In this document: positions 5,480 to 52,275 of the stretch, in pieces
Numbering within the stretch: position 1 is the first letter of the stretch
Layout of the letters: every line of letters begins with the position of its first letter
Virus record (IMG/VR): IMGVR_UViG_3300032087_004567
DNA length: 64,000 bases
Direction: 5' to 3' (one strand)
Source of the DNA: a virus
Translations under genes and position numbers: made by a program
The notes under the pieces: model-generated
Seen by the model: only the letters and a program-made list of their open reading frames with translations
Told to the model about the DNA's origin: nothing
The model's database searches: none

Positions 5480-5504
5480 CCTTCCACAATAACTAGGAGA
5501 ATAA

Positions 5505-6353: not shown

Positions 6354-6354
6354 T

Positions 6355-8023: not shown

Positions 8024-8052
8024 TTGATTTAATTTAGGAAATATATTATAAT
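8024..8052 (+). promoter_or_regulatory. early sigma70-type promoter
   Basis: TTGATT-N17-TATAAT in a tagTTGATTtaattt context repeated across the window. Confidence 0.8.
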
Positions 8053-8074
8053 ATTATTTTATTATGGAGGTAAT

Positions 8075-8335: not shown

Positions 8336-8688
8336 TGCCTAAGATGTATTTTGCAGAGTTTACCAAAGACAATAAAGTATTTCAAAAGTTTGGTCATACA
8401 GGTCATAACGATGCAATGATAAGACTTAATAATATTACAAAAGAATATCCGCAGTTTAAGGCAAGAGTCTTAGCTGCGGCATATCATAATGATATTACAA
8501 AGTGTCAAGGGGCAGAAGAAGCTTTTAAATGTATGTACCCTAAGAATTTTTGGTTAGAAGAAAAAATATCTGGTATTACCGAATGTGTTGTATTAGATCA
8601 ATCGACTAGAAATTCTGTTATTCAAGCAGTGAGAAAATTGAATACTAAATTTAAGGAGGAGTGTTTTGGCAATCAAGATAGCGCATGA
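8335..8688 (+). CDS. hypothetical protein, possible T5orf172/GIY-YIG-like nuclease domain
   Basis: N-terminal MYFAEF...FQKFGHT...RL pattern and a late conserved E resemble GIY-YIG variants; weak. Confidence 0.4.
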   Translation: MPKMYFAEFTKDNKVFQKFGHTGHNDAMIRLNNITKEYPQFKARVLAAAYHNDITKCQGAEEAFKCMYPKNFWLEEKISGITECVVLDQSTRNSVIQAVRKLNTKFKEECFGNQDSA

Positions 8689-9508: not shown

Positions 9509-9998
9509 TGAAATAGATACTCTAAGTAGAAATCTAAATCAAAAACCTGATCAAATACTTACTAACAATAAAGACTATGATGGACCTTTAGAAGTTACAA
9601 AAGGTACACATAAAGAATTAATGGATATGTTAGAGGAGTTAGATCCTTATACTTTAGTTACTTTACATGGTTATTTAAGAATAATACCTGAACGTATTAC
9701 CTCCCATTGTAAAAGAATGTATAACGGTCATCCTGCTCTTGCTAATGTATATCCTGAACTAAGAGGATTAGATCCACAAAAGAGAACATGGCAGAATATA
9801 GAAAGATATGCTGCGGTTGGATCTATTGTTCATCATGTAATACCCGAGGTAGATGCAGGGGACGTAGTTGCATATGAATCTATTGTAATACCACATAGTG
9901 ACTATACAGAAGAGGCGTTATATGGTGATTTAAGAACATGTTCAATAGTATCATGGAAGAAATTTTTAATGGAGTACTTTAATGAAAATCGGCATTAG
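9474..9998 (+). CDS. PurN-fold formyltransferase, candidate preQ1 N-formyltransferase (DpdN-like)
   Basis: ALFSQTGS, HGYLRII, YNGHPAL, GSIVHHV and EVDAGDV correspond to GART motifs; AGGAG RBS; lies between the DpdA-like gene and queF. Confidence 0.78.
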   Translation: MNWVALFSQTGSEIDTLSRNLNQKPDQILTNNKDYDGPLEVTKGTHKELMDMLEELDPYTLVTLHGYLRIIPERITSHCKRMYNGHPALANVYPELRGLDPQKRTWQNIERYAAVGSIVHHVIPEVDAGDVVAYESIVIPHSDYTEEALYGDLRTCSIVSWKKFLMEYFNENRH

Positions 9999-10503
9999 TG
10001 GTGTGCATGGTAGTGGTAAGACTACTTTACTTAATAATGAAATGTTTAGAAGTTGCACTAAATGCGATGAAGTAACTAGAACGGTTAAAAAAGAGTATAA
10101 CGTTGAGATAAACGAACAAGGTAATGATGTTACTCAGAAGTTAATTATGAGAGAACATATGGCAAATCTTATACTCAATAATAATATGGTAACTGATAGA
10201 ACTGTTATTGATTGTATGGCCTATACCCATTACCTTTATGATAATAAACAAGTAAGTAAAGATACGTTTAATTATATTTCTATGTGCTATAGTAAACTAG
10301 TTAAGAAATATGATCTTATATTTTATCTTGTACCAGTTGAAGATAAAATTGCCGATGATGGTGTTAGATCTACTAATGTAGAATTTAGAGATAAAATGAT
10401 AGAGTATTTTGAAAAGTATATTAATCATTTTAATGTAGTAAAGGTTAAAGGTGATTATAAAGAACGTATAAGGTTTTGTAGAGAAACTTTATGCTTATTT
10501 TAA
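9982..10503 (+). CDS. P-loop nucleotide kinase-like protein (AAA_28/NadR-type)
   Basis: GISGVHGSGKTT Walker A, DRTVID, YDLIFYL, DDGVR. Confidence 0.75.
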   Translation: MKIGISGVHGSGKTTLLNNEMFRSCTKCDEVTRTVKKEYNVEINEQGNDVTQKLIMREHMANLILNNNMVTDRTVIDCMAYTHYLYDNKQVSKDTFNYISMCYSKLVKKYDLIFYLVPVEDKIADDGVRSTNVEFRDKMIEYFEKYINHFNVVKVKGDYKERIRFCRETLCLF

Positions 10504-10512
10504 AGGAGAAGA

Positions 10513-11442
10513 ATGGATAATCAAAAGAAACTTAACGAACTAGTAAGTGTTCATTTAGGTAAAGCCGGGGATGGTTCAGTAGTTAAACCTTATGTAACCC
10601 CTGATGAAGTTGATCCTAGTTTACTTGTAGGTGTACCTAGACAATTAAATAGAACGCAATATGATTTAGATGATGGCAATCTACCTTTCGTCGGTTACGA
10701 CGTATGGAACGGCTATGAATTTTCAACTTTACTTACTAGTGGGTTTCCTGTATCGGGATGGGTTAAGTTTAGCTATAGTTCAAGTACACCTTTTATTGTA
10801 GAAAGTAAATCGGTTAAACTTTATCTTAACTCTTTTAATATGGCAAAGATAATTGAGACTGAAAAAGATATAGAAGTTATAGAGACTAAAATTAAGAATG
10901 ATATAGGTGAGGTAGTAAAAGGTGATGTTGACGTTAGAGTGTTTATTGATCCTAAGGAAACAAAAGAACCTTTTAAGAAACCTTTCTATAGTATAGAAAA
11001 ATTAGTTGATGTAGAAAATATAAAGTTTGATCGTTATAATGAATCTGAAGACATACTAAAAATCATACCCATGGGTGAATGTCCGTTGAAAGGATATTAT
11101 AGATCCTATTCGTTACGTTCTAATTGTAGGGTAACTAATCAACCTGATTGGGGTGATGTATACATTTATATCAAAGGTGCTATGACGGTAAGTTTAGAGT
11201 CATTATTACAATATATTGTTTCTATGAGAAGAGAGAATCATTTTCATGAGGAAATATGTGAATGTATCTATAAACGATTACATGATCTATTGTCACCTAT
11301 TGAGTTATTTGTTGGTTGTTTATATACTAGACGTGGTGGGATTGATATTAATCCTATTAGGGCAACATCTATGGAAACTGTTAAGGCAGTAAGTAATATT
11401 CATAATGTAAATAGACCATCAACTAAGACTGCAAGACAATGA
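10513..11442 (+). CDS. queF: NADPH-dependent 7-cyano-7-deazaguanine (preQ0) reductase, two-domain type
   Basis: QueF motif VESKSVKLYLNSF, catalytic RSNCRVTNQPDWG, FHEE, YTRRGGIDINP. Confidence 0.93.
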   Translation: MDNQKKLNELVSVHLGKAGDGSVVKPYVTPDEVDPSLLVGVPRQLNRTQYDLDDGNLPFVGYDVWNGYEFSTLLTSGFPVSGWVKFSYSSSTPFIVESKSVKLYLNSFNMAKIIETEKDIEVIETKIKNDIGEVVKGDVDVRVFIDPKETKEPFKKPFYSIEKLVDVENIKFDRYNESEDILKIIPMGECPLKGYYRSYSLRSNCRVTNQPDWGDVYIYIKGAMTVSLESLLQYIVSMRRENHFHEEICECIYKRLHDLLSPIELFVGCLYTRRGGIDINPIRATSMETVKAVSNIHNVNRPSTKTARQ

Positions 11443-11717
11443 TTGAATACAAATATAATGAACCTGAACATTTAGATAGTTTAAAGAAGTATATTGATAA
11501 TACCTATAATCAACATTATGCAAAAGGTAGTATACAGGCAACAGAATATATTATTGATTCGGGTTTAGGTAAAGGTTTTTGTATTGGGAATGTAATTAAG
11601 TATGCCTCCCGATATGGAAAGAAAGAGGGTAAGAATAAGAATGATTTATATAAAATCGTTCATTACATCATAATGGAACTAAATAGTTTAGATAAGGAAC
11701 AAAATGAATCTAAGTGA
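11439..11717 (+). CDS. DUF3310/SaV-like protein (T7 gp1.7 nucleotide-kinase-related family)
   Basis: QHY...IQATEYI...GFCIGNVIKYASRYGKKEG...DLYKIVHY. Confidence 0.8.
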   Translation: MIEYKYNEPEHLDSLKKYIDNTYNQHYAKGSIQATEYIIDSGLGKGFCIGNVIKYASRYGKKEGKNKNDLYKIVHYIIMELNSLDKEQNESK

Positions 11718-12459
11718 GGCTTTAAACGTATTACCGGACACCGATAACAAAGTTCTATCTGTACATTCCGGAGGTATGGATTCTTCTATAATGACTATGT
11801 TGTTGGTAGAAAAATATGGTAAAGACAAAGTGGAGACTGTTTCTTATCGGTACGGTCAGAAACAGGCTGAAGAACTAGTAAGAGCGCAGGAGTTCTGCAG
11901 AACGTTAGGTATCTTAAGACATGAACTAGATCTAACCATCTTAGGTTATATTGCAAGAGAAATCTCCGCTAACATTGTAGAGAGTCATATTAAGATGCCA
12001 ACCATTAAAGAGGTACTAGGAGATCCTCAGCCTAAGACCTACGTACCGTTTAGAAACTTAATTCTACTTTCTATGACTCTTGCCCAGGCCGAGGCAAGAA
12101 ACTGTAATTATATATTTACCGGATTACAAGTACATGATGAATATGGCTACTGGGATACATCACAGAAGTTTGTTGATAGTATAAATGCTGTTGCCGATCA
12201 AAATAGAACGCATAAGGTAAAAATTATTGCACCCTTTAGTCATTTATCTAAGTATGATGAAATAAAATTATGCCAGGAGATGGGTAAAGAAGAGTTATTA
12301 GAACATACTCTAACGTGTTATAATCCTGATTCAGAAGGAAGATCATGCGGTGTATGTCCTTCTTGTTCTGAACGTATTGCTAATTTTATTAAAGCAGGGG
12401 TAAGAGATCCAATAGTGTATGTAAAAGATTTGCCGTGGACACAATTATTAAATAAATAG
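11704..12459 (+). CDS. queC: 7-cyano-7-deazaguanine synthase
   Basis: SGGMDS PP-loop, YGQK, YVPFRN, TCY...CGVCPSCSER zinc site. Confidence 0.94.
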   Translation: MNLSEALNVLPDTDNKVLSVHSGGMDSSIMTMLLVEKYGKDKVETVSYRYGQKQAEELVRAQEFCRTLGILRHELDLTILGYIAREISANIVESHIKMPTIKEVLGDPQPKTYVPFRNLILLSMTLAQAEARNCNYIFTGLQVHDEYGYWDTSQKFVDSINAVADQNRTHKVKIIAPFSHLSKYDEIKLCQEMGKEELLEHTLTCYNPDSEGRSCGVCPSCSERIANFIKAGVRDPIVYVKDLPWTQLLNK

Positions 12460-12463
12460 TTAT

Positions 12464-12997
12464 ATGGCAAAATATAATCATAGAACTATACATACAGTAT
12501 ATCTTGATATGGATGGGGTTCTATGTGATTTCGATTCATATTACAGATCAATATACGGGGTAAATTGCAGAGATGACGATAATGAAGATAATTGGTACGA
12601 GTTTGTCAATAATCAAGGATTTCAAGAGCTCGATAGAATGCCAGGTTACGATGATCTGTTTTCAATGCTCAACGAGCTGTATGTGGATATCGAGATTCTT
12701 TCCTGTATTACTAGTAGGAAGAATAATAAAGAGGTTGCAAAACAAAAAGTAGAATGGTTATTTAGAAATAGTTTAGAAAATAATGTAATTAACTTTACTA
12801 TAACAAAACAAGGTAAAGGTAATTATGCTAATCCAAATGTATTGCTGATTGATGATTCTGATGAATGTATTTCAGCATTTAAACAAAGTGGGGGGTATGC
12901 TTTAAAGTATACCGGTATTGATAAGCTAAAATTTGAGATTGAATATTTATTAAGTGAAGATATATTATGTGTGCGATCGTTGGGTCATTTCAGTTAG
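12464..12997 (+). CDS. HAD-family 5'(3')-deoxyribonucleotidase
   Basis: YLDMDGVLCDF, KVEWL and LLIDD motifs. Confidence 0.8.
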   Translation: MAKYNHRTIHTVYLDMDGVLCDFDSYYRSIYGVNCRDDDNEDNWYEFVNNQGFQELDRMPGYDDLFSMLNELYVDIEILSCITSRKNNKEVAKQKVEWLFRNSLENNVINFTITKQGKGNYANPNVLLIDDSDECISAFKQSGGYALKYTGIDKLKFEIEYLLSEDILCVRSLGHFS

Positions 12998-13590
12998 ATA
13001 AACTTAAAGAACTAATCAAGTTAAATTCCTATAGAGGTTCTCATTCATACTCTATATCGTTTTATGATATAGAAAATGGTACGTTGAATAATGTTATAAA
13101 AGACTTTGGTGAATTAGATGTTGATACTATAAGAATACCTTATGGTGATTATTGTATAGCACATATACAAGCGCCTACAACAACTAAAAAAGATAAAGAT
13201 TCAATTCATCCGGCAACTGTCGATGATTGTTATCTATGGCATAATGGTATAATAAAAGAAATGACAATTGAGAAGTTTAGTAAAGAGTATAATACTAAAT
13301 GGGATACTAAGTTACTACTTGAAGGAATTAAAAAAGTAGGTTATAATATACTCAATGAAATGGATGGTACGTTTAGTTGTTTAATGTATAAAGATAAGAA
13401 TTTATTATTATTTCGTAATGAAATATCTCCGATGTTTATAGATGATGATTTTAATATTTCATCAACGAAGTTTGATAATAGTAGAGAAACAGATCCTAAT
13501 AAAGTTATACAAATGGATCTAAAGAATAAAAGTCTACAAACAGTAGATAGATTTAAAACGTATTTTAACCCTTATTACTTTGGAGATTAA
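12967..13590 (+). CDS. class II (Ntn) glutamine amidotransferase-like protein
   Basis: N-terminal MCAIVG nucleophile, RG, IHP, LWHNGII, WDT. Confidence 0.8.
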   Translation: MCAIVGSFQLDKLKELIKLNSYRGSHSYSISFYDIENGTLNNVIKDFGELDVDTIRIPYGDYCIAHIQAPTTTKKDKDSIHPATVDDCYLWHNGIIKEMTIEKFSKEYNTKWDTKLLLEGIKKVGYNILNEMDGTFSCLMYKDKNLLLFRNEISPMFIDDDFNISSTKFDNSRETDPNKVIQMDLKNKSLQTVDRFKTYFNPYYFGD

Positions 13591-24019: not shown

Positions 24020-25084
24020 ATGAATTTTTTTAGAGATTTAGTAAAAGAGATAAAAGATGAAGATACTTCTATTGCCGCTGACGGTGCCGGTTCTGCTGAG
24101 TTTGGTAGTTTTATTGATACTGGTAGCTACATGCTCAATGCTGTGCTCTCGGGCAGCATATATGGTGGCGTTCCTGATAACAAAGTTACTGCATTTGCAG
24201 GAGAGTCCGCTACTGGAAAAACTTATTTCGTATTGGGTGTCGTTAGATCCTTCCTCGAAAAAAACCCCGAAGGAGGAGTAGTTTATTACGATACTGAAGC
24301 TGCTGTAACTAAAGGTATGATGGAGGAGAGAGGGATTGATACTACCAGGGTAATACTCTCTGAACCTGATACGATTCAGAAATTTAAAACTCATGCATTA
24401 AAGATGATTGATGCATATGATAAGCAACCAGAGGAGACTAGACCTCCAATGTTGTTTGTTCTAGATAGTTTAGGCCTTCTATCTACCACGAAAGAAATGG
24501 AAGATAGTTTGGAAGGTAAGGATACGAGAGATATGACTAAGGCGCAAGTTATTAAAGCTGCCTTTCGCGTACTCACGTTAAAGTTGGCAAAGGTAAATGT
24601 ACCTATGCTAGTTACTAACCATGTGTATGATCTTGTTGGATCATATGTACCAATGAAGGAGCTAGGTGGTGGATCAGGACTTAAATATGCTGCCAGTACT
24701 GTTGCGATGCTCACTAAGAAGAAAGAAAAAGACTCTTCAGGGGCAATCGTCGGTAATGTCATCAAAGTTAAGATGTATAAATCCCGACTATCAAAAGAAC
24801 ATAAACAAGTCGAAGTGCTACTTACTTACGACAAAGGTCTAGATAGGTATTATGGTCTTTTAGATTTAGCCGAGAAGTATAGTATCTTTAAAAAAGTATC
24901 TACGCGATATGAATTGCCAGATGGTAGTAAGGCGTTTGGTAAACAAATTAATAATAATCCAGAAAAATATTATACTGAAGATATTCTAAAGCAAATAGAA
25001 GAGGCTGCAGGTAAAGAATATAAGTATGGATCGGTTGAGGGAATAGATGATAGAGAAGACGATACTGAGCAGACTGCTGCATGA
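24020..25084 (+). CDS. uvsX: RecA-like recombinase UvsX
   Basis: [36 protein letters not shown]. Confidence 0.95.
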
Positions 25085-39120: not shown

Positions 39121-39297
39121 TTATTGTGGAAGTGGCGGTATCTTTGAACGTGTCTTATCTAAAGGATCTGATCTCAATTTCTTTCCACCATCACCATCGG
39201 CGTCTGCATCACCCTTGCGCAGCTTTCCACTACGTGTAAAATGATAACCCTTTGGTGCTGATTTAACTTCTTTGATAAACTCTTGAAATTTAAGCAT
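39121..39297 (-). CDS. small basic protein with a capsid-targeting-like N-terminus (58 aa, not in the ORF track)
   Basis: MLKFQEFIKE-VKSAPKGYHFTRSGKLRKG...; AAGGA RBS and CTAAATA late-promoter-like site upstream. Confidence 0.65.
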   Translation of the reverse strand: MLKFQEFIKEVKSAPKGYHFTRSGKLRKGDADADGDGGKKLRSDPLDKTRSKIPPLPQ

Positions 39298-43482: not shown

Positions 43483-43737
43483 ATGAAAAAATTTAATCAA
43501 TACGTAAAAGAAGATTTAGATTTAATCTTAGAGTTTAATAAGGTTGCAATGAGTGCAGCTAAAGATGCAATTGCAAAGAAGATGAGCCATAAACAAGCAC
43601 AAGACCATGTTCATAATACAGTAATGAAGCATAGTAAGTCTAAGTCACCACAAGGTGCAGGTGGTGCTGTTTCAAGGATAAGAATCAATCAAGCATTAGA
43701 TAAGGCTGACGATCATTTAGCTAAGCATTATGGCTGA
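43483..43737 (+). CDS. basic putative internal head protein
   Basis: MKKFNQYVKE capsid-targeting-like N-terminus; K/H-rich. Confidence 0.55.
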   Translation: MKKFNQYVKEDLDLILEFNKVAMSAAKDAIAKKMSHKQAQDHVHNTVMKHSKSKSPQGAGGAVSRIRINQALDKADDHLAKHYG

Positions 43738-44518
43738 TTTTGATCTTGCTTATATTAATAAGATAACCAAGACAGTAGCCAATTTATTTCTTAAACAATC
43801 TGACGTTGGTAATAATTTAAGTGCAAAACATAAGCATAGTATTCAACATGCAGTCAATGATAGATTTTTTGGTGTAGATGACCATACACATATTGGTAAA
43901 AATAGTTCATCTAATATTACAAGTCAGGAAATTAATGCTGCTATAGATTTTTATAAGAAAGCAAATTCTGAATCATTTAAATACATTTATGATTATAGAT
44001 TTAATGTTCAAGGTATTGGAAGAGGTGAGTTTTTTATTTTTCTTTTATATGATAAAGCAAGACTAGGGGGATCAGGTGCCGCAGCTGCTGATATAAGTGT
44101 TGGTAGTAAGACATATGAAGTAAAAGAAGTACCAATTAATAGTAGAAAGCTAATTTCTAATCTAAAGACTGGTGGCGGTGGTGATAATTTTGAATACTCA
44201 AAATATATAAAGAGATTTTATGATATAGGTAAATCATTAGGTTTTGATAAAAGAGCACCTGGTGGTACAGAATTTACTTTAAGAGCAATATCTAGAAAAT
44301 CATTAGAGGAAATGAGAAAAGATAGTAACGTTGCATATATGAGAGCACTCAACGATTTTAAAAAAGATATTGTTAATAGTTATTTTAAAGGTCATCCTAT
44401 TATTTGGATGGATAAAAATAAAGAACGTTGTATTGATGTAGTTGAAATAACTGAGAAGCATATCCCAGATATTCAAGTAATTACACAAAGTATAATAAAA
44501 CCATTTATTCAGTTATAA
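43730..44518 (+). CDS. putative PD-(D/E)xK endonuclease
   Basis: GRGEFF...ADISVG.KTYEVKE catalytic-type pattern. Confidence 0.5.
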   Translation: MADFDLAYINKITKTVANLFLKQSDVGNNLSAKHKHSIQHAVNDRFFGVDDHTHIGKNSSSNITSQEINAAIDFYKKANSESFKYIYDYRFNVQGIGRGEFFIFLLYDKARLGGSGAAAADISVGSKTYEVKEVPINSRKLISNLKTGGGGDNFEYSKYIKRFYDIGKSLGFDKRAPGGTEFTLRAISRKSLEEMRKDSNVAYMRALNDFKKDIVNSYFKGHPIIWMDKNKERCIDVVEITEKHIPDIQVITQSIIKPFIQL

Positions 44519-44520
44519 GT

Positions 44521-45714
44521 ATGTTAAATTTTAAATTTTTTCTTACAGAGGCAGTATCAAATGAATCTAAATTAACACATTTAGAGCATGCTGAAGATCA
44601 TGTAATTAATTCTGGTGAGAAAGGATTCTCTCATGCATTTCATAATTTAAAAGATGTGCATGATAAGCTATCTGGTAAACATAACAATACAACTATTACA
44701 TCAAAATACGATGGTAGTCCTTCTATTGTATTTGGACATCATCCTAAAACAAAAAAGTTCTTTGTAGGAACTAAATCAGTATTTAATAAAGATCCAAAAA
44801 TTAATCATACAAATGATGACGTAGATAAAAATCATGGACATGCACCTGCACTTGCACATAAATTAAAACATGCATTAAAACATCTACCAAAAGTTACCCC
44901 TAAAGGTAAAATATATCAAGCTGATCTAATGCATCATGGTGTTAAATCAGATACTAACAAACATGGAGATGTGGAGCATAGACATGGTAAACTTCATTTT
45001 AAGCCTAATACCATTAGTTATAGTACTCATAGTCATAGTGATGAAGGAAAGAAAATAAGTAAGTCAAAGATTGGAATAGTACCTCATACAGAATATAAAG
45101 GTCATGATTTAACTTCGATGAAAGCACATTATAATGCTGATGTATCTAAGATGCATAGTCATGAACATGTTCATGTAATATCACCACACTTTGATCATAA
45201 GAAGGTAAAGTATACAGAAGAACATAAAAAAGCATTTCATAAACATTTGAATGCTGCAACAAAGAGTTTTAATAATGCACATAGAGATTTTCATAAGCAT
45301 GTTGAACCACATACAACACATTTAAAGACATATATTAATCATACTATACGTCATGATACTAAACCAAATATTAACGGATATAAGAATCATTTAAGTAGAC
45401 ATTATAATAAAAAAGCAGATGCTGTAAAAACAGATGCTGCAAAACAACGACATCTTAACGTATTAGGCCAACATCATGCACATGTAGATAAACATGTTAA
45501 TCATTTCAAATCTACATTAAGTATGCATCATCATTTACAACATGCAAAGAATACATTAGTAAACGCACTTAACTCTCATACTAAATACCATCATCATATT
45601 GCTGGTATTAAGACTAAACCAGAAGGATATGTTGTTTCTCGAAATAATAGACCTACTAAATTAGTACATAGACATGAGTTTTCTAGGGCAAATTTTTTAA
45701 GACAAAGTAGTTGA
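44521..45714 (+). CDS. His-rich ligase-like nucleotidyltransferase (DUF6267-like)
   Basis: HLEHAED, KYDGSP (motif I KxDG), YQADL, PEGYVV, KLV.R.EFSRANF; about 60 His in 397 aa. Confidence 0.65.
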   Translation: MLNFKFFLTEAVSNESKLTHLEHAEDHVINSGEKGFSHAFHNLKDVHDKLSGKHNNTTITSKYDGSPSIVFGHHPKTKKFFVGTKSVFNKDPKINHTNDDVDKNHGHAPALAHKLKHALKHLPKVTPKGKIYQADLMHHGVKSDTNKHGDVEHRHGKLHFKPNTISYSTHSHSDEGKKISKSKIGIVPHTEYKGHDLTSMKAHYNADVSKMHSHEHVHVISPHFDHKKVKYTEEHKKAFHKHLNAATKSFNNAHRDFHKHVEPHTTHLKTYINHTIRHDTKPNINGYKNHLSRHYNKKADAVKTDAAKQRHLNVLGQHHAHVDKHVNHFKSTLSMHHHLQHAKNTLVNALNSHTKYHHHIAGIKTKPEGYVVSRNNRPTKLVHRHEFSRANFLRQSS

Positions 45715-45739
45715 TTTAATTTAGGAATTATCATATAAT
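45711..45739 (+). promoter_or_regulatory. early sigma70-type promoter
   Basis: TTGATT-N17-TATAAT. Confidence 0.75.
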
Positions 45740-45745
45740 AATAAT

Positions 45746-46369
45746 ATGAAGACTTTAAAAGAATTTAGACAACAATTACAAGAAAAGGTAAAGTCACTTC
45801 ATGCATTTGACTTAGATGATACTGTATTTAAAAGTCCTCATCTTAAAGTACATGTTAAAAACGAACATGGTAAAAGAGTTAAATCATTAGATACACATCA
45901 ATTTAGTCATCATAGTCAAAAGCCTTTACCTAAAGGTCATAAGTATGACTTTAGTGATTTTGCATCATCAAAGAAATTTCATCAGCATGCAAAACCTATT
46001 CATAAAATGATTAGTAGAATGAGATTGCATACTGCAAATAAAAATAGTAAAGTTATTATTAGTACTGCAAGAGCTAATATGGATGATAAGCATAAGTTTT
46101 TACACACTCTTAAAAAACATGGTATTAATACTAAAAAAGTTCATGTAGTTAGACATGGAGATATGAAAGGTGGTTCTACTGGTGAAAAGAAAAGACTTAC
46201 CTTTAGTGGATATATTAAAAAGCATAAAGTAAAGGATGCACATTTTTACGATGATGATAAGAATAATTTAAAGCATGTTTTATCATTAAAGAAAAAACAT
46301 CCCAATACTAGAATTTATGGCCATCATGCACAATCAGATGGCTCAACAAAACCTTATAGTGGAGATTAG
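45746..46369 (+). CDS. His-rich HAD-family phosphatase
   Basis: AFDLDDTVF, ISTAR, K, FYDD motifs; MKTLKEF N-terminus; about 23 His in 207 aa. Confidence 0.7.
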   Translation: MKTLKEFRQQLQEKVKSLHAFDLDDTVFKSPHLKVHVKNEHGKRVKSLDTHQFSHHSQKPLPKGHKYDFSDFASSKKFHQHAKPIHKMISRMRLHTANKNSKVIISTARANMDDKHKFLHTLKKHGINTKKVHVVRHGDMKGGSTGEKKRLTFSGYIKKHKVKDAHFYDDDKNNLKHVLSLKKKHPNTRIYGHHAQSDGSTKPYSGD

Positions 46370-46372
46370 ATT

Positions 46373-46519
46373 ATGGCAAAAAAATTTGGTGTTACAGTAG
46401 TAATTGATCACGTAAAAAAGAAAACAAGTATTAGTGGTAATCATAGTATGTGTAAAACAGCTACTATGAATAAAAGTAAAAAACGTAGTTATAAAAGATA
46501 TAGAGGACAAGGTAGATAA
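46373..46519 (+). CDS. conserved small basic T4-like protein (48 aa, not in the ORF track)
   Basis: KKTS.G...NKSKKRSYKRYRGQGR, next to the PAAR gene. Confidence 0.7.
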   Translation: MAKKFGVTVVIDHVKKKTSISGNHSMCKTATMNKSKKRSYKRYRGQGR

Positions 46520-46836
46520 TGCCAGCAGCAGCAAGAGCAGATGGAGTTGATTCAGTAGATAGCCCAGATGGAACTGGTGATAAATGTTTATCACCTACAA
46601 CCCAGGCAACCGATACAGGATCAGGAGATGTGTTTATAAACGGACATGGTGCAATACGATTATTAACAGATAGTTGTACACCTCATTCAGGTCCAGGTTG
46701 TGTAACGCATGCACCAGTACTTACTTCAGCTAGTCCAAACGTTTATGTTAATGGTAAAGGTGCTGGTAGAAAAGATGATCAATATGCAGCACATGTTATT
46801 ACAACTGGATCAGGAGATGTGTTTATAAATGGCTAG
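46519..46836 (+). CDS. PAAR-repeat spike tip protein (gp5.4-like)
   Basis: MPAAAR, GSGDVFING twice, Cys/His metal ligands. Confidence 0.88.
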   Translation: MPAAARADGVDSVDSPDGTGDKCLSPTTQATDTGSGDVFINGHGAIRLLTDSCTPHSGPGCVTHAPVLTSASPNVYVNGKGAGRKDDQYAAHVITTGSGDVFING

Positions 46837-47554
46837 AAATTATCTTAATAATGAATTTATAAAGGTTGTAAGAGGATTTGTACAAGGTGCATATTCTGTA
46901 AATAAGTTTGGTTATAATCCTGCAATTCCAACTAATGCATTTGAAACAGTTTGGGATGGATCAAATTTATACACTTACATTTCAACAGCTAGTACAGCAA
47001 CTGTTACTTCGTCTAATACAGCTGCCGATAATGGTGGTACAGTTAAAGTTTCTGGTTTAGATGCTAACTATAATTTAGTAGATGAAGTATTAACTATTGG
47101 TGGTGCTGCTGGATCAATTAATTTTTATAGAGTTTTCAGAGTAGAACTGTTATCATCTACTACGGCTGATACAAATGTTGGTACACTTACTGTTACTGTT
47201 GATAGTATAGCGGCTGCTATTGTGAGTCCTGAAAGAGGCCAAACATTAATGGCATTATATACAATTCCTGCTGGTAAAAAAGGTTACATTGTACAATTAG
47301 ATATAGCTAGTAGTGCAAGTGGTGAAATTGATGTGACCTTACTTACGAGAAATGGTTCCAGTAATGTATGGGCAACAAAAGAATTTTTAACCATTAGAGG
47401 TGGTTTTAATGAAAAGAATTTTATATTACCCCTAGAAGTAAATGAAAAGACTGATATAGAAGTAAGAGCTAAATCAAGTGCAACTGCTGCTATAAGTTCA
47501 GGATTTGAAATGATAGTTATAGACGTTCCAGTTGTAGCGCCGAGTATATACTAA
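46829..47554 (+). CDS. putative virion structural protein
   Basis: VNKFGYN, ETVWDG, GQTLMALYTIPAGK, EKTDIEVRA. Confidence 0.6.
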   Translation: MARNYLNNEFIKVVRGFVQGAYSVNKFGYNPAIPTNAFETVWDGSNLYTYISTASTATVTSSNTAADNGGTVKVSGLDANYNLVDEVLTIGGAAGSINFYRVFRVELLSSTTADTNVGTLTVTVDSIAAAIVSPERGQTLMALYTIPAGKKGYIVQLDIASSASGEIDVTLLTRNGSSNVWATKEFLTIRGGFNEKNFILPLEVNEKTDIEVRAKSSATAAISSGFEMIVIDVPVVAPSIY

Positions 47555-47856
47555 TGAAACCAGGAACAGATTTTTTAAGAAATTTAGCAGTAGCATGTGT
47601 ACCTTTACTTCTTGCTGCACTAGGCTATCTTTTTACTAATGCATTAACATTACATGATAAAGTAAGAGTATTAGAACAAAAGATGTCAATACTAATTGAT
47701 ATGGATAATAAGATTATTCCATCACCTGGTAATGCTATTGCAAGATTAGAATTAAAAGAACAATTATTGATAGAAAAAAATGAGATTGATAAGAGAATTC
47801 ATATCTTAGAATATCATATCGATAAATTGTTAAAGGAGAAAGACTCTAAAGAGTAG
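47554..47856 (+). CDS. membrane-anchored coiled-coil protein
   Basis: N-terminal TM helix. Confidence 0.55.
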   Translation: MKPGTDFLRNLAVACVPLLLAALGYLFTNALTLHDKVRVLEQKMSILIDMDNKIIPSPGNAIARLELKEQLLIEKNEIDKRIHILEYHIDKLLKEKDSKE

Positions 47857-47859
47857 AAT

Positions 47860-47867
47860 TATAAATA
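47860..47867 (+). promoter_or_regulatory. gp55-type late promoter
   Basis: TATAAATA. Confidence 0.7.
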
Positions 47868-47912
47868 TAACATACCTAGATGTTAGGCCAAGGCAAACCC
47901 CTAGAGGAAAAT

Positions 47913-50543
47913 ATGGATAAAGAAGAAAAGAAAGTAGTCGATAAAAAGACTACTAAAAATAATAAAAAGAGCGAAATAGTGGTCGCACCAGAACTCAATA
48001 AAGTTGAGGAAGCAAAAGGAAAAGAATCTACAGGTGTTCTTTCATTTGGTAGATTTAACCCACCAACAACCGGTCACGAAAAACTATTAGACAAAGTACA
48101 TAGTGTTGCAAAAGAACATAATGCAATGGCACATGTCTATGCATCACACACAGAAGGAAACGCAAAGAATCCTTTACCACAAGAAAAGAAGATTGGTTAT
48201 CTTAAAAAGGTAGCACATAAAGATGTTAATGTGTATGGCTCATCAAAAGAAAAACCAACTATACTACATGCTGCAAAAGATTTACATGATCATGGTCACA
48301 AGCATTTAGTTGTTGTTGCCGGTCAGGATAGAGTAGATCATTTTCATTCCTTATTAAACAAATATAACGGCCATAAAGATCATTATAATTTTAGTTCTAT
48401 TAAAGTTGTATCATCAGGTGATAGAGATCCAGATACAGAAGGAACAAAAGGTATATCAGGAACTAAAATGAGAGCACATGCAAGAGCTGGCAATCATAAC
48501 GAATTTAAAAAAGGTTTACCTAAAGCATTACACCCACATGCAAAAGAAATAGCAAATCATATCAAGTCAATAAAAGAAGGATTGCATGAGGAGTTAATTG
48601 AGGCTGCATTAGATATTGTTCAAAGAAGAAAAAGAGCAATGGCATTAAGAAGACGTATGCCTAGAATGCAAAGAAGAAGAATGCTATTAGTTAAACGTTT
48701 TGCCGATCAAAAGAAACTACAAACTAGGGCGCGTAAAGTTGCAAGACAATTAGTTAGATCAAGAGTTGCAGGTAAAAGAGGTGCTGAGTATCATAAATTA
48801 ACTCCTGCTGCAAAACAAGAAGTAGATAAGAAACTAGAGAGTAAAAAGAAACTAATTAACCTAGTAGCTAAAAGAATATTTGCTAAAGTAAGAAGAAGAG
48901 AGGCTGAAAGAGTACAAAGAGCAAGAGGTGCAAAACCAGCACAAAAAACTAAACTTACTTTAAGTCAAGAGTATGATAATTTAAATAGCTTGTTTGAGAA
49001 AGTATCTACAAAAGTAAGACAAGACAAAGATATAGCAGATAGAAAAGGTACACAACCGGCAAAGTATCATAAAGGTTTAGCACCATCAACTAAAGCTGCT
49101 AGAGATGCCCAGTTTAAAAAACAAGCTAAAATGGATGACAAGAATCCAGCAGCATACAAACCAGCACCAGGTGATGCAACTGCAAAAACTAAACCATCAG
49201 TGTATACAAAAATGTATAAAGATATGTTTGGTGAAGTTTTAAACTATGATACGTTTAATTCTTTATTTGAAAAAGTTGCTGACGAAACATTAAAAGAATT
49301 AGGTCCAAGAAGAAGAGCTAGGAGAGTTGGTTATTATCCTAAACCTAAAAAACCTTTACCTAAAGTATCACAAGTTAAAAATATAAATCCAGAAGAAGAA
49401 ATAACTGAAAAGTCTATGGAAGCTTTAAAATCAAAAGCATCTAAATCAGGTTATTCTTATAAGACACTTAAGAAGGTTTATGATAGAGGTGTTGCTGCAT
49501 GGAAGACAGGTCATAGACCAGGTACTACACCACAGCAATGGGGTTATGGTAGAGTAAATGCATTTATTGCAAAACAAAAATCAGGTAAGAAGTTAGATCA
49601 TGATACTGATTTAGCTAATGAGTATATACCTGAACAAGCTCAACAAAATTATAATACACCAGCTGCAGATCATAAAGCTGATAAGATATATCCATATCAA
49701 GCTGCAATAAAAGATTTAGATTTAAATACTAAGAATAGAAATAAGACTATTAAAGAATATGATTATGGTCCAGCTAATCCAGAATCAGAAGAGCATACTA
49801 AAATGTATTGGGAAAAGAAAGCTGACTTATGGGGCTGTTCTATTGAGATGGTTAAGACAATGAGATGTATGAATTGTGCTGCTTTCGATCAGAAACCTCA
49901 AACATTAAGGTTAATGGCAGATGGTATTGGACCAGATGGAATGAAAATAGTTAAGAATGCCAATTTAGGCTTTTGTGAATTATTCGAATTTAAATGTGCA
50001 GGGAATAGAACTTGTGATGCATGGGTAGGAGGAGGACCTCTTAAAGAGTCTGAGTATATACCAGAAAGAGGAAGTGACTATTTACGATTAGCAAATGTCT
50101 CTATGAAAAAAGGAGATATGAAAAAAGCTATTATGTATAGAAGAGCTGCTGCAGCTGCTGAAAGAGGGGATCAAACAACTCTTCAAGCAGTACTACAACA
50201 GATTAGAAATCTAGCAGGTAGTGGTACGATACATCATGAAAGTAAACAATTAGAAGAATCATTTATTGTCGACCGTTCAAGTGGTTATAGTGTAACCTAT
50301 ACAGCAAAGGATTTAGGTATACAAACACAAGGTGGTTTTGCTTTACATCCATCAGTTATAGATGAAATGGAAGAAAATTTTATGGATGGTAAGAACCCAC
50401 AAGATAAAGGTGATATGGCAAGACACGGACTTAAAGGTAAATCTATAAGTCAGTTAAAGAAGATAAGATCATCTGATTCAGCATCACCAAGAAAGAAACA
50501 ATTAGCACATTGGTATATTAATATGCATAAGGGTAAGAAGTAA
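47913..50543 (+). CDS. multidomain protein with an N-terminal HIGH-superfamily cytidylyltransferase-like domain
   Basis: FGRFNPPTTGHEKL, VVAGQDRV, GISGTKMR, followed by Arg-rich, YDRGVAAW..HRPG and Cys-rich modules; GAGG RBS before the ATG at 47913. Confidence 0.75.
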   Translation: MDKEEKKVVDKKTTKNNKKSEIVVAPELNKVEEAKGKESTGVLSFGRFNPPTTGHEKLLDKVHSVAKEHNAMAHVYASHTEGNAKNPLPQEKKIGYLKKVAHKDVNVYGSSKEKPTILHAAKDLHDHGHKHLVVVAGQDRVDHFHSLLNKYNGHKDHYNFSSIKVVSSGDRDPDTEGTKGISGTKMRAHARAGNHNEFKKGLPKALHPHAKEIANHIKSIKEGLHEELIEAALDIVQRRKRAMALRRRMPRMQRRRMLLVKRFADQKKLQTRARKVARQLVRSRVAGKRGAEYHKLTPAAKQEVDKKLESKKKLINLVAKRIFAKVRRREAERVQRARGAKPAQKTKLTLSQEYDNLNSLFEKVSTKVRQDKDIADRKGTQPAKYHKGLAPSTKAARDAQFKKQAKMDDKNPAAYKPAPGDATAKTKPSVYTKMYKDMFGEVLNYDTFNSLFEKVADETLKELGPRRRARRVGYYPKPKKPLPKVSQVKNINPEEEITEKSMEALKSKASKSGYSYKTLKKVYDRGVAAWKTGHRPGTTPQQWGYGRVNAFIAKQKSGKKLDHDTDLANEYIPEQAQQNYNTPAADHKADKIYPYQAAIKDLDLNTKNRNKTIKEYDYGPANPESEEHTKMYWEKKADLWGCSIEMVKTMRCMNCAAFDQKPQTLRLMADGIGPDGMKIVKNANLGFCELFEFKCAGNRTCDAWVGGGPLKESEYIPERGSDYLRLANVSMKKGDMKKAIMYRRAAAAAERGDQTTLQAVLQQIRNLAGSGTIHHESKQLEESFIVDRSSGYSVTYTAKDLGIQTQGGFALHPSVIDEMEENFMDGKNPQDKGDMARHGLKGKSISQLKKIRSSDSASPRKKQLAHWYINMHKGKK

Positions 50544-50821
50544 TGTTATCATTTAAAGAATTTAGAAATATAGAAGAGGCAGAATATCAAGGTAGAAAAG
50601 TATCTTTAGGTAAGCCATTTAGAACACCAGGTGGTCCTAAAAAGTCTGCTGTATATGTTAGAAATGAAAAAGGTAATGTAGTAAAAGTTACTTTTGGAGA
50701 TCCTAATATGAAGATTAAGAAAAATATTCCTGCTAGAAGAAAATCATTCAGGGCAAGACATAATTGTGATAACCCTGGACCTAAAACAAAAGCAAGATAT
50801 TGGAGTTGCAAGGCATGGTAA
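50543..50821 (+). CDS. conserved small basic phage protein
   Basis: MLSFKEF...AEYQGRKV, FGDPNM, RRKSFRARHNC, ARYWSC. Confidence 0.75.
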   Translation: MLSFKEFRNIEEAEYQGRKVSLGKPFRTPGGPKKSAVYVRNEKGNVVKVTFGDPNMKIKKNIPARRKSFRARHNCDNPGPKTKARYWSCKAW

Positions 50822-52275
50822 ATTTAAAAAAATTAAAAGAAGTATTAAACATTAAAGAAATTAGTAAAGCTACTAAAGCATCATATGTACAAAAAGCTAC
50901 ATCAGATCTTTTTAAACAAGGTTCTGCCATGTCTACAGCTGTTAGTAAAGGTGATTCAGCTGCTGCAGATAAAGCAACAAAGAAAGCAACTAAAAGAGCA
51001 ATTAATATTCAAAATCTTGTTCATAAAGGATTGTACAATAATAAAGAAGGGAAACTTGATGAGTTATCTCCAGAAACTTTAAAAAAGTATAAAACAGCAG
51101 TAGATAAGAAACATACTGTTAAAGATTATGATCCAAGTAAAGGTGTAAACAGATATACATCGAAAGGCATACAAAGATTTAAAAGCCATGATCAAGAGCG
51201 TAAACGTGATACTGGTGTTGCTCGTGCGAACGATAGACTTAAAAAAGTAGAAGAAAATTTGATGCTTAAAAATCCTTACAAAGGTATGGATAAAGATAAG
51301 TTACAAGCTAAACATAAATCATTTAATAGACAAATTGCCGATCTAGAAAATAAAAAAATGAGAAGCAATATGGGTGCCGCCAAAGGACCTGGTGGTTATG
51401 ATAGAGAAATATCAAGATATAAAACTAAACTACAACATGTTAAAAATGCTATGAAAGAGGCTCATGAAATGTGTCCAGATGAGTGTTGTGGTAAGCCAGT
51501 ATCTGAATGCGATTGCGGACCTGAATGTAAACACTGTGATTGCTATTTTAAAAATATGCCTGAGGAAAAGCAAAACACTAAAGAAGAAAAACCTTGTTGG
51601 GATGGTTATAAACAAGTTGGTACTAAAATGAAAAATGGTAGAGAAGTACCTAACTGTGTTCCCGAAGAAACAGAAATACAAGAAGCAGGACATGCTGATG
51701 TTAAGTCAGCAAAGAATCAAGTTAAGATAGCAATGAGTGCGTTAGAGAAAATGAACACTGAATTATCTAAACTTAGTGATGAAGATTCTTTACCTACATG
51801 GTGGACTAATAAAGTAGCTATAGCTGTCGATAAGTTAGATGGAATGGCCGACTACTTAGATACACAGGTTGAAGGTAAAGTAAATGAAATTAGTACTGAT
51901 ACTAAAAAAATGTATATACAAAAAGCAACAAAAGACATAGCTAATAGAGGAATGGATAGAGGTATGGCTATGTCTAGAGATGGCGATCAAGCTGATCAGT
52001 TAGCTAAAGCTGCAGATAAAGTAATAAAGAAAAGACAAAAAGGTATTACTAAAGCAGTTAAGAGTATGACTAAAAATGAAGCATTAGAAATTGGTACTGA
52101 TAAAATAGTAGATGTTTATAAAAATATGACACCAGGTCAAACTGGTAATCAATATAGATCAGTTGCATCTGTTTATAGAGATATGACTAAGAAAAGAACA
52201 GAGATAGAAAGAGTTGCAAGATCAAAGAAAACAGATGTCGCAAGTTCAAGAGGCGATCAACAACAGAATTCATAA
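50815..52275 (+). CDS. modular putative internal head polyprotein
   Basis: Three (D/N/K)E(I/L)SxxTxxxY modules, a Cys cluster, the CWDGY...VPNCVP motif and LPTWWTNKV. Confidence 0.6.
   Translation: MVNLKKLKEVLNIKEISKATKASYVQKATSDLFKQGSAMSTAVSKGDSAAADKATKKATKRAINIQNLVHKGLYNNKEGKLDELSPETLKKYKTAVDKKHTVKDYDPSKGVNRYTSKGIQRFKSHDQERKRDTGVARANDRLKKVEENLMLKNPYKGMDKDKLQAKHKSFNRQIADLENKKMRSNMGAAKGPGGYDREISRYKTKLQHVKNAMKEAHEMCPDECCGKPVSECDCGPECKHCDCYFKNMPEEKQNTKEEKPCWDGYKQVGTKMKNGREVPNCVPEETEIQEAGHADVKSAKNQVKIAMSALEKMNTELSKLSDEDSLPTWWTNKVAIAVDKLDGMADYLDTQVEGKVNEISTDTKKMYIQKATKDIANRGMDRGMAMSRDGDQADQLAKAADKVIKKRQKGITKAVKSMTKNEALEIGTDKIVDVYKNMTPGQTGNQYRSVASVYRDMTKKRTEIERVARSKKTDVASSRGDQQQNS

What the first reader, a model, noticed from the sequence alone, without database searches (positions are those of the whole stretch)
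43483..48580. Histidine-rich enzymes with capsid-targeting-like leaders
Seen: by hand count, 44521-45714 has about 60 His in 397 aa (~15%), 45746-46369 about 23 in 207 aa (~11%), and the cytidylyltransferase domain of 47913-50543 about 20 in ~185 aa. His is dispersed through otherwise recognisable folds; the first two proteins have no Trp or Cys. N-termini read MKKFNQYVKE, MLNFKFFLTE and MKTLKEF..LQE. Established: the T4 capsid-targeting sequence is of the form MKTYQEFIAE and is removed by the prohead protease after Glu; typical His content is about 2%. Inference: three unrelated folds have converged on His/Lys-rich surfaces, which suggests shared selection on virion-packaged, injected proteins, such as pH-switchable DNA binding, unfolding for ejection, packing against modified DNA, or metal carriage.
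Basis: partly seen in the sequence, partly recalled or inferred. Interest (0 to 1): 0.82.

Follow-up and report, generated by a model that had tools for sequence, protein, structure and literature searches.

The report
Histidine-coated enzymes in phage capsid cargo
An uncultured T4-like marine phage encodes three unrelated enzymes that are 11-15% histidine, two of them with a short leader like the tag T4 uses to load proteins into its head; the leader is widespread and fairly well explained, but the histidine coat is confined to certain lineages and has no explanation yet.

Summary
The three enzymes have 60 His in 397 aa (15.1%), 23 in 207 aa (11.1%) and 19 in 171 aa (11.1%), against 2.2% in the rest of the window. 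The first two have no Cys or Trp.

The proteins are:
- an RNA-ligase-like nucleotidyltransferase (Pfam DUF6267, with a KxDG motif);
- a HAD phosphatase closest to the AphA-type nucleotidases;
- an NMNAT/cytidylyltransferase-like domain inside a long multi-module ORF.

Packaging is likely but indirect.
- The leader (M-x-x-F-x-x-F-L-x-E) matches the T4 capsid-targeting sequence at the four positions T4 genetics found important.
- It occurs on at least 10 unrelated protein families in related phages.
- Close relatives encode the T4-type prohead protease.
- NMNAT-like homologues were found by mass spectrometry in virions of several cyanophages.
- The mature enzymes contain no internal protease-type (L/I/V)-x-E site.

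Histidine content is not a consequence of packaging. A virion-detected homologue (S-SCSM1) has 0.7% His, and cultured relatives with leaders have normal His.

Histidine is a graded trait that differs between lineages.
- It rises and falls together in the ligase-like and NMNAT-like enzymes across genomes (Spearman 0.71).
- It is confined to the enzyme domain.
- It has changed at least twice.
- It also occurs in a cultured soil phage of 56% GC.
- It is not linked to deazaguanine genes.

The cause is open. I favour a titratable positive coat. Metal binding is the main rival.

The parts
43483..43737 (+). 84-aa basic protein, 7.1% His, no Cys or Trp. Its leader is MKKFNQYVKE (43483-43512). No known family and no homologue in the fetched loci.
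43730..44518 (+). 262-aa protein upstream of the ligase-like gene. His is normal (2.7%) and there is no leader. It is homologous to the gene in the same position in relative L005. Function unknown; listed as context.
44521..45714 (+). DUF6267 protein, 397 aa, 15.1% His. RNA-ligase-like covalent nucleotidyltransferase fold with K62-x-D64-G65. The candidate propeptide is residues 1-10, MLNFKFFLTE (44521-44550). The only (L/I/V)-x-E site in the protein is in this leader.
45746..46369 (+). HAD-superfamily phosphatase, 207 aa, 11.1% His, closest to the AphA-type nucleotidases. The candidate propeptide is residues 1-13, MKTLKEFRQQLQE (45746-45784). Both (L/I/V)-x-E sites lie in this leader.
47880..50543 (+). 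Long multi-module basic ORF (887 aa from 47880; the start is probably 47913). It has no T4-like leader at its N-terminus. The modules after the enzyme domain have normal His and include DUF5824 and a Cys-bearing module.
48036..48548 (+). NMNAT/cytidylyltransferase-like domain (residues 53-223 of the long ORF), 11.1% His, no Cys. Signatures GRFNPPTTGH and ISGTKMR are present. There is no internal (L/I/V)-x-E site. The domain is flanked by VEE (42-44) and by IKE, LHE and LIE (231-241).
50543..50821 (+). 92-aa basic protein with leader MLSFKEFRNIEE and normal His (1.1%). It is conserved in relatives as an 88-89-aa protein that continues ...E-AEYQG....
50815..52275 (+). 486-aa basic protein with a looser leader, MVNLKKLKEVLNIKE, and normal His (1.6%). 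It contains a Cys-cluster module.

Best explanation
Region 43.5-52 kb is the internal-protein (capsid cargo) cassette of an uncultured T4-like marine myovirus related to the Kyanoviridae.

Proposed mechanism:
- Two of the three enzymes are made with a 10-13-residue N-terminal propeptide equivalent to the T4 capsid-targeting sequence.
- The propeptide takes them to the acidic scaffolding core of the prohead.
- The gp21-type prohead protease cuts once after the leader's Glu.
- The mature enzymes stay in the head with the DNA and enter the cell with it.

The cargo is:
- an RNA-ligase-like nucleotidyltransferase (DUF6267);
- a HAD nucleotidase-like phosphatase;
- an NMNAT-like nucleotidyltransferase.

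Together they look like a ready-made kit for nucleotide or nucleic-acid-end chemistry. Such a kit could act before any phage gene is expressed, for example against host defences that cut tRNA or drain NAD+.

The histidine is a separate trait that differs between lineages and, in this phage's ligase-like gene, shows more gains than losses. In this phage the variable positions of the enzyme modules have been recoded. In the ligase-like enzyme, where I compared relatives, the replaced residues were acidic, polar and aromatic. All three enzyme modules here are low in Glu and have no Cys and no internal protease site.

My preferred reading is that this makes the enzymes titratable polycations. They would be charged against the acidic scaffold and the DNA, and largely neutral once free in the cytoplasm.

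Shown: the composition, the folds and motifs, the conservation of the leader, the co-variation, and the protease gene in relatives.

Inferred: packaging in this particular phage, the cleavage, injection, enzyme substrates, and the reason for the histidine.

Sub-claim odds:
- packaged cargo, about 0.75;
- the His enrichment is selected and shared by these enzymes, about 0.7;
- the titratable-charge mechanism, about 0.3.
For: Phage type:
- The window has T4-like replication genes.
- The nearest records are Kyanoviridae.

Leader:
- All top 120 homologues and most 50%-identity representatives carry M-x-x-[FL]-x-x-[FY]-[LI]-x-E before the conserved domain.
- T4 genetics places targeting at residues 4 and 7 and processing at residues 8 and 10 of MKTYQEFIAE.
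- Residues 1-13 of the model have pLDDT below 50.
- The motif occurs at 7.3% of ORF N-termini in 195 loci, against 0.45% at internal Met, and on at least 10 unrelated families.

Protease:
- Peptidase_S77 is present in relatives G001 and G003.
- Their scaffold-like proteins have 14-16% Glu and 13-17 [LI]xE sites. The mature His-rich enzymes have none.

Virion mass spectrometry on homologues:
- S-SZBM1_140, which has a leader.
- S-CREM2 ORF154.
- S-SCSM1 ORF91, and S-CBWM1 as cited there.
- The leaderless, Cys-containing DUF6267 homologue of S-SZBM1 is not in that phage's virion list.

Folds:
- The best VIA-align matches are RNA ligases, Z 8.7-6.7 over 177-209 residues.
- K62, D64, G65, E368, G369 and K380 are nearly invariant.
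- The HAD model matches AphA at Foldseek E 3e-4, and all HAD motifs are invariant.
- The NMNAT-like signatures are invariant.

Histidine as a shared, selected trait:
- His co-varies between the two enzymes across 26 lineages (Spearman 0.71), while background ORFs stay at 1-4%.
- It is confined to the enzyme domain within the long ORF, both here and in phage DLP6.
- This phage shows 12 changes to His and 3 away from it against its 28 closest relatives. Five are Lys to His, which needs two base changes. Gln fell rather than rose.
- It also occurs in a genome of 56% GC.

Charge:
- His content anticorrelates with Asp plus Glu (rho -0.37).
- Cassette proteins carry net charges of +6 to +68, against -11 to +2 for replication proteins.
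Against: - No virion data exist for this phage or for any His-rich member of the DUF6267 or HAD families.
- The window does not contain the protease gene, and no whole genome is held.
- The leader motif is short. UvsX also matches it in 8 loci.
- The long ORF has no T4-like leader here, and many His-rich short NMNAT-like proteins have none.
- His is not needed for packaging: the virion-detected S-SCSM1 ORF91 has 0.7%.
- In another His-rich clade the enzymes have only +3 to +10 net Lys/Arg charge. A general polycation rule is therefore not established.
- The expected number of internal [LI]xE sites is only about 1 given the low Glu content. Their absence alone is weak evidence.
- Ligase-fold Z scores near 8 are in the range where unrelated folds can appear.
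- The correlations are only partly corrected for shared ancestry.
Confidence: 0.5

Rival explanations
1. The histidine coat binds metal. At 11-15% His the enzymes would chelate Zn, Ni, Cu or Co. This could stabilise them in the capsid, bridge them to DNA phosphates, keep redox-active metals away from the DNA, or carry scarce metal into the host.
For: - With this much surface His, many HxH and HxxxH pairs arise by chance, so some metal binding is physically almost unavoidable.
- The same cassette holds Cys-cluster modules: 8 Cys within 50 residues in 50815-52275, and 6 Cys within 100 residues in the long ORF.
- A His-rich small metal-binding protein (3u8v) appears among the weak helical matches, at Z 5.5.
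Against: - No His spacing (i+2, i+3, i+4) exceeds shuffled sequences.
- Acidic residues, which are also metal ligands, are lost as His is gained.
- The Cys modules also occur in relatives with normal His, so they do not track the trait.
- The 3u8v match is within the noise for helical bundles.
- The trait also occurs in a soil phage. That weakens an explanation based on ocean metal scarcity.
Confidence: 0.2
2. These enzymes are not packaged in this phage. They are ordinary cytoplasmic enzymes, and the conserved N-terminus has another role, such as an amphipathic helix for localisation, interaction or translation initiation. The histidine would then serve some catalytic or regulatory purpose.
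For: - There is no direct virion evidence for this phage.
- UvsX, a cytoplasmic protein, matches the leader pattern.
- The DUF6267 homologue was not listed in the S-SZBM1 virion proteome.
- Leaderless His-rich NMNAT-like proteins exist.
Against: - The motif shares all four functionally mapped T4 positions and ends in Glu.
- It is shared by at least 10 unrelated families clustered in one cassette.
- Leader-bearing homologues were detected in virions.
- The one DUF6267 missing from a virion proteome is a leaderless form with 4 Cys.
- Only 4 of the 60 His are family-invariant, so the rest are not catalytic.
Confidence: 0.15
3. The histidine is a by-product, not a function. Selection removes Glu (protease sites), Cys and Trp from cargo enzymes, and the relaxed surface positions then drift to His under a local mutational or codon bias.
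For: - Glu is strongly depleted (3.5% and 1.9%, against 7-8% in replication proteins), and internal protease motifs are absent.
- His content anticorrelates with the number of [LI]xE sites across the family (rho -0.58).
- Tyr, Asp and Asn are each one base change from His and are common sources.
Against: - Removing Glu does not require His.
- Gln did not rise, as a first-position bias towards C would predict.
- Five of 12 recent gains are Lys to His, which needs two base changes.
- Neighbouring genes, and other modules of the same ORF, are unaffected.
- The same enrichment occurs in genomes of about 32% and 56% GC.
- It has changed at least twice on the domain tree.
Confidence: 0.1

Closest known systems
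T4 internal proteins IPI, IPII, IPIII and Alt, with the capsid-targeting sequence MKTYQEFIAE
   Same: - A T4-like phage.
- A roughly 10-residue N-terminal leader with hydrophobic residues at positions 4, 7 and 8 and Glu at position 10.
- Basic cargo proteins.
- A prohead protease of the same family in relatives.
- A single predicted cut, with no further sites in the mature protein.
   Different: - The mature proteins are unrelated to the T4 internal proteins.
- They are full-sized enzymes.
- They are 11-15% His, which has not been described for T4 internal proteins.
- Packaging and cleavage are inferred here, not shown.
Virion-associated NMNAT-like / cytidylyltransferase proteins of T4-like cyanophages (S-SCSM1 ORF91, S-SZBM1_140, S-CREM2 ORF154, S-CBWM1)
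   Same: - A homologous domain: 40% identity to S-SZBM1 over 93% of the domain.
- The same position in the genome.
- The same leader in most of them.
- Presence in virions has been published for these phages.
   Different: - The papers I read (S-SZBM1, S-CREM2, S-SCSM1) say nothing about a leader or about His content where I read or searched them.
- Most cyanophage forms have about 1% His. Only S-SZBM1 (10.2%) resembles this phage.
- Here the domain sits inside an 887-aa multi-module ORF.
T4 RNA repair enzymes Rnl1/Rnl2 and Pnkp
   Same: - A ligase-type fold with a KxDG lysine.
- A HAD phosphatase.
- In relative HTVC008M, a P-loop kinase of the AAA_33/zeta type that carries a leader.
- Together these are the parts of an end-healing and end-sealing set.
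   Different: - No sequence-level match to the RNA-ligase families.
- The HAD domain is nearer to AphA-type nucleotidases than to Pnkp.
- This phage has no kinase in the cassette.
- The T4 enzymes are not packaged.
- The substrate here is unknown.
Histidine-rich metal-binding proteins (Hpn, SmbP, His-rich tails of SlyD and HypB; named from memory)
   Same: Very high His content.
   Different: Those proteins carry His in tracts or short repeats within small proteins or tails. Here His is spread evenly over the variable positions of three confidently folded enzymes whose active-site motifs are intact.

Membership tests
T4-type capsid-targeted internal proteins | N-terminal propeptide of about 10-19 residues, with targeting residues at positions 4 and 7 and processing residues at position 8 and Glu 10 | tested here: met
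   - MLNFKFFLTE and MKKFNQYVKE fit all four positions.
- MKTLKEFRQQLQE and MLSFKEFRNIEE fit positions 4 and 7 and end in L/I-x-E slightly later.

T4-type capsid-targeted internal proteins | The phage encodes a gp21-type prohead protease (Peptidase_S77) | tested here: inconclusive
   - Present in relatives G001 (65% identical ligase-like protein) and G003, at E 1e-36.
- Not in the window, and no whole genome is held.
T4-type capsid-targeted internal proteins | The protein is present in purified virions with its N-terminus cut after Glu | not testable with these tools
   - Only homologues of the NMNAT-like protein have mass-spectrometry support.
- No N-terminal mapping has been reported.
Covalent nucleotidyltransferases (ATP-dependent RNA/DNA ligases) | Motif I KxDG with the catalytic lysine | tested here: met
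   K62, D64 and G65 are at least 90% conserved in 88 representatives.
Covalent nucleotidyltransferases (ATP-dependent RNA/DNA ligases) | Nucleotidyltransferase fold | tested here: inconclusive
   - VIA-align places RNA ligases on top: 5cot at Z 8.7, 1xdn at 7.8, Trl1 at 7.7, T4 Rnl1 at 7.4 and Rnl2 at 7.0, followed by a run of DNA ligases.
- Foldseek is weak, E 0.09.
- The Atlas gives only a lead to PF09414, score 0.75.
- No Pfam ligase family matches.
HAD-superfamily phosphatases | Motifs DxDxT, Thr/Ser, Lys and DD, plus the Rossmann-like fold | tested here: met
   - D22, D24, T107, K149, D169 and D170 are invariant.
- Foldseek matches AphA at E 3e-4 with probability 1.00.
T4 polynucleotide kinase-phosphatase (Pnkp) | A P-loop kinase domain fused to the HAD phosphatase | tested here: not met
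   - The protein is 207 aa with a HAD domain only.
- The PHROG 'polynucleotide kinase' match (E 7e-10) covers the phosphatase part.
- Pnkp is not among the top structural matches.
NMNAT / cytidylyltransferase-like nucleotidyltransferases | The (H/T)xGH and ISxTxxR signatures, and the Pfam CTP_transf_like model | tested here: met
   - GRFNPPTTGH and ISGTKMR are invariant.
- PF01467 scores 28.3 bits against a cut-off of 21.
- The substrate is not testable here.
Histidine-rich metal-binding proteins | His in tracts or in regular chelating spacing | tested here: not met
   No spacing from i+1 to i+8 exceeds shuffled sequences.

The most novel reading that the evidence does not exclude
A dispersed histidine coat is a recurrent evolutionary solution for carrying folded enzymes inside a DNA-filled capsid. 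It has arisen or been lost several times in T4-like phages from sea, estuary and soil. It marks a virion-delivered kit of ligase-like, phosphatase and NMNAT-like enzymes that acts before any phage gene is expressed. Such a kit could pre-empt host defences that cut tRNA or deplete NAD+.
Probability: 0.25. Interest if true: 0.8.

Novelty: new variant of a known kind. Interest (0 to 1): 0.62.

Why it matters
Phages are known to inject proteins with their DNA, but little is known about what makes an enzyme fit to travel in a capsid.

This case offers a clear sequence signature:
- a leader;
- no internal protease sites;
- no Cys;
- in some lineages, a coat of 10-15% histidine.

The signature can be read from metagenomes and could help identify injected cargo in uncultured phages.

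The histidine trait itself is very unusual for globular enzymes. It co-varies between unrelated proteins in the same genome, which argues for a shared physical constraint that can be tested.

Two cultured phages carry a His-rich NMNAT-like domain: Stenotrophomonas phage DLP6 and cyanophage S-SZBM1. Experiments are therefore feasible.

If the cargo is a repair or NAD-restoring kit, it would be a new kind of immediate counter-defence.

Tried and rejected
Neighbourhoods came from IMG/VR scans instead.
- No whole genome is held for the window.
- Sequence searches of the PDB found nothing meaningful for any of the three enzymes.
- Foldseek gave only weak ligase matches for DUF6267.
- The megablast search found no closely related DNA (about 85% identity or more) in the phage collection.
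- A simple leader-versus-His association across 88 representatives was not significant (P 0.22).
- His spacing and helical-face tests were negative.
- Deazaguanine link: QueC is in the window and in 3 of 5 His-rich relatives. It is absent from the complete His-rich G003, from DLP6 and from S-SZBM1. I rejected the link.
- I tested whether 43483 and 43730 are a split copy of the 336-364-aa His-rich upstream gene of relatives. No similarity was found.
- Pfam found nothing for the other His-rich neighbours in relatives.
- Literature: no paper mentions DUF6267. The pelagimyophage survey does not mention histidine, ligase or cytidylyltransferase.
Surface exposure is inferred from variability only.


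Full report
**What the window is.** The window carries T4-type replication and recombination genes upstream of the finding. GC is about 32%. Megablast (roughly 85% identity or more) found no close DNA relative among deposited phages. At protein level the nearest records are Kyanoviridae: cyanophages, Pelagibacter phage HTVC008M and Methylophilales phage Melnitz. The identical ligase-like protein occurs on metagenomic contigs of up to 141,881 bp. No whole genome is held.

**The observation.** It is confirmed.
- The three enzymes have 60 His in 397 aa, 23 in 207 aa and 19 in 171 aa.
- The rest of the window averages 2.2% His. Binomial tails are 1.6e-31, 2.8e-10 and 9.5e-9.
- The first two proteins have no Cys or Trp.
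- The His are dispersed, with no preferred spacing.
- These are real, folded proteins. Pfam DUF6267 matches at E 3e-99. The models have pLDDT 94.6 and 88.8.

**What the proteins are.**
- *44521-45714* is DUF6267.
  - K62-x-D64-G65, E368-G369 and K380 are nearly invariant across 88 representatives.
  - A search that does not rely on Foldseek ranks RNA ligases first: Naegleria RNA ligase at Z 8.7, TbREL1 at 7.8, Trl1 at 7.7, T4 Rnl1 at 7.4 and Rnl2 at 7.0. A run of DNA ligases follows.
  - I read it as a divergent ligase-like nucleotidyltransferase with a helical insert at about residues 233-350.
  - The Z values are modest and sequence searches of the PDB are empty, so membership is likely but not proven.
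- *45746-46369* is a HAD phosphatase.
  - All four motifs are invariant.
  - The best structural matches are AphA class B acid phosphatases and nucleotidases.
- *Residues 53-223 of the long ORF* form an NMNAT/cytidylyltransferase-like domain with both signature motifs.
- In HTVC008M the same cassette holds a leader-bearing P-loop kinase of the AAA_33/zeta type.
- Across phages the set is therefore ligase-like, kinase or phosphatase, and nucleotidyltransferase.

**The leader.**
- Every one of the top 120 homologues, and most distant representatives, begin with M-x-x-[FL]-x-x-[FY]-[LI]-x-E. The conserved domain follows.
- The T4 targeting sequence is MKTYQEFIAE. Amber-suppressor work placed targeting at residues 4 and 7 and processing at residues 8 and 10. 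These are the four conserved positions here.
- The leader is disordered in the model.
- It is absent from cyanophage and HTVC008M forms, which start directly at the domain.
- Across 195 loci the pattern is at 7.3% of ORF N-termini, against 0.45% at internal Met. It sits on at least 10 unrelated families, mostly in this cassette.
- It is not fully specific: UvsX also matches.
- Two relatives encode the T4-type prohead protease. Their scaffold-like proteins have 14-16% Glu and 13-17 [LI]xE sites.
- The mature His-rich enzymes have no (L/I/V)-x-E site at all. The only sites lie in the leaders.
- The NMNAT-like domain is bracketed by such sites at residues 42-44 and 231-241.
- This fits the published statement that T4 internal proteins are cut only once. 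Because Glu is scarce, the absence of sites alone is weak evidence.

**Experimental support from the literature.**
- Mass spectrometry of purified virions found the NMNAT-like or cytidylyltransferase protein in S-SZBM1, S-CREM2 and S-SCSM1. S-CBWM1 is cited to the same effect.
- One paper already concludes that such proteins are probably carried in virions.
- S-SZBM1 gives a natural contrast. Its NMNAT-like protein has a leader, no Cys and 10.2% His in the domain, and it is in the virion list. The adjacent DUF6267 homologue has no leader, 4 Cys and 1.0% His, and it is not in the list. Absence from a proteome is not proof of absence from the virion.

**Histidine is a separate trait.**
- In DUF6267, His ranges continuously from 1.2% to 15.7% across representatives. 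This phage is the extreme.
- On a tree built with His masked, a starred branch separates two groups. One is mostly low (1-3%). The other is elevated (5-16%). Both contain exceptions. At least 4 changes are forced.
- Only 4 of the 60 His are family-invariant. Elsewhere His replaces Asp, Glu, Asn, Ser, Thr and Lys, and also Tyr, Trp and Phe.
- Against its 28 closest relatives, this phage shows 12 changes to His and 3 away from it. Glu is down 2.3 points, Asp down 1.1 and Gln down 0.9. Five of the gains are Lys to His. That pattern is directional and is not a simple base bias.
- Across 26 dereplicated lineages, His in the ligase-like domain tracks His in the NMNAT-like domain (Spearman 0.71). Background ORFs stay at about 1-4%.
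- The HAD family shows the same range, 1.5-12.4%.
- Within the long ORF, His is confined to the enzyme domain.

**Limits of the packaging explanation.**
- The virion-detected, leader-bearing S-SCSM1 ORF91 has 0.7% His.
- Melnitz, C48C1 and HTVC008M carry leaders on several cassette proteins with normal His.
- Many His-rich short NMNAT-like proteins have no leader.
- Homologues in jumbo phages, outside structural modules, have 1-3% His and contain Cys.
- On a His-masked tree of the domain, S-SZBM1 sits inside a starred clade of low-His forms.
- DLP6, a cultured soil phage of 56% GC, has 12.1% His, again only in the enzyme domain.
- The trait has therefore changed at least twice and does not depend on AT-rich codon usage.
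- The deazaguanine idea fails. The window has a full preQ pathway, but His-rich forms occur in three complete genomes without QueC.

**Mechanism.** I commit to packaged cargo at about 0.75.

For the histidine I favour a titratable positive coat, at about 0.3.
- Cassette proteins are strongly basic, from +6 to +68.
- Acidic residues fall as His rises.
- The scaffold they must join is very acidic.
- T4 internal proteins are described as highly basic.
- His would add charge next to polyanions and lose it in free solution.

Against this, one His-rich clade has little Lys/Arg excess.

The other readings:
- Metal binding is the main rival, at about 0.2. It is favoured by simple chemistry and by the Cys modules nearby. 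It is weakened by the lack of chelating spacing and by the loss of acidic ligands.
- A by-product of purging Glu, Cys and Trp is possible but does not explain why His in particular.

**Novelty.** Virion carriage of NMNAT-like proteins and the T4 targeting sequence are both known. I found four things unreported in the searchable literature:
- the widespread T4-like leader on this cassette;
- the ligase-like fold of DUF6267;
- the extreme histidine enrichment, which is confined to the enzyme domain;
- its co-variation between unrelated enzymes in the same genome.

Earlier first-stage notes of this scan raised the same repair-kit, Glu-depletion and polyprotein ideas on this genome. I tested parts of them, as listed under earlier findings.

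Noticed in passing
window 39121-39297 (- strand): A 58-aa ORF on the minus strand begins MLKFQEFIKE, a perfect match to the leader. It lies in a 620-bp gap between + strand genes. It may be a real small cargo gene on the opposite strand, or chance.
   Followed up: no
window 4958-13590: The region holds peptide deformylase and a complete preQ0/preQ1 pathway: QueE-like radical SAM, a phosphoribosyltransferase, QueD (PTPS), FolE, QueF and QueC. There are also a formyltransferase and an amidotransferase. No DpdA-type transglycosylase was identified; the 280-aa ORF at 8666-9508 has no Pfam match.
   Followed up: partly
window 50376-50540 (C-terminus of the long ORF) and protein P0130: A conserved C-terminal tail, roughly DG-K/R-NPQDKGD...RHG...QLAHW..NM, ends both the 887-aa ORF and a leaderless HAD homologue from another contig. 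It may be a shuffled module or a second, C-terminal packaging signal.
   Followed up: no
window 48972-49004 and 49245-49277: A near-identical linker, YD..NSLFEKV, occurs twice inside the long ORF. Each copy contains an L-F-E protease-type site. This fits a cargo polyprotein cut into modules.
   Followed up: partly
window about 49830-50130 and about 51415-51715: There are Cys-bearing modules inside otherwise Cys-free basic cargo ORFs: 6 Cys within 100 residues, and 8 Cys within 50 residues followed by 2 more. Similar modules occur in relatives with normal His.
   Followed up: partly
window 46519-47554: A PAAR-motif protein (PF05488) and a phrog_8198 protein sit between the cargo genes. Both are low in Lys and His, so they are probably tail-tip or structural proteins rather than cargo.
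   Followed up: no
L197 (Stenotrophomonas phage DLP6) 9001-10302: The gene after the NMNAT-like ORF is annotated as exodeoxyribonuclease VII large subunit. It is 7.4% His, so the trait may extend to further cargo in this cultured phage.
   Followed up: no
protein P0126; loci L009 8465-10001 and L011 8910-10004: Other His-rich proteins occur next to the ligase-like gene, most of them leader-bearing:
- a fusion of an HExxH metallopeptidase-like domain with the HAD domain (12.4% His);
- a 336-364-aa protein starting MKQFKELRE (8.6-9.9% His);
- a 137-aa protein (13.9% His), which has no such leader.
None has a Pfam family.
   Followed up: partly
L014 1447-2106 and L013 1438-2088: The prohead protease of relatives starts MKLISELVE or MRLITEVAQ. 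An L-V-E site at residues 7-9 resembles the LIE-9 site noted for T4 gp21.
   Followed up: no
window 24020-25084: The UvsX homologue starts [10 protein letters not shown], which fits the leader pattern. It does so in 8 loci. This is probably a coincidence of an amphipathic N-terminus, and it limits the motif's specificity.
   Followed up: partly
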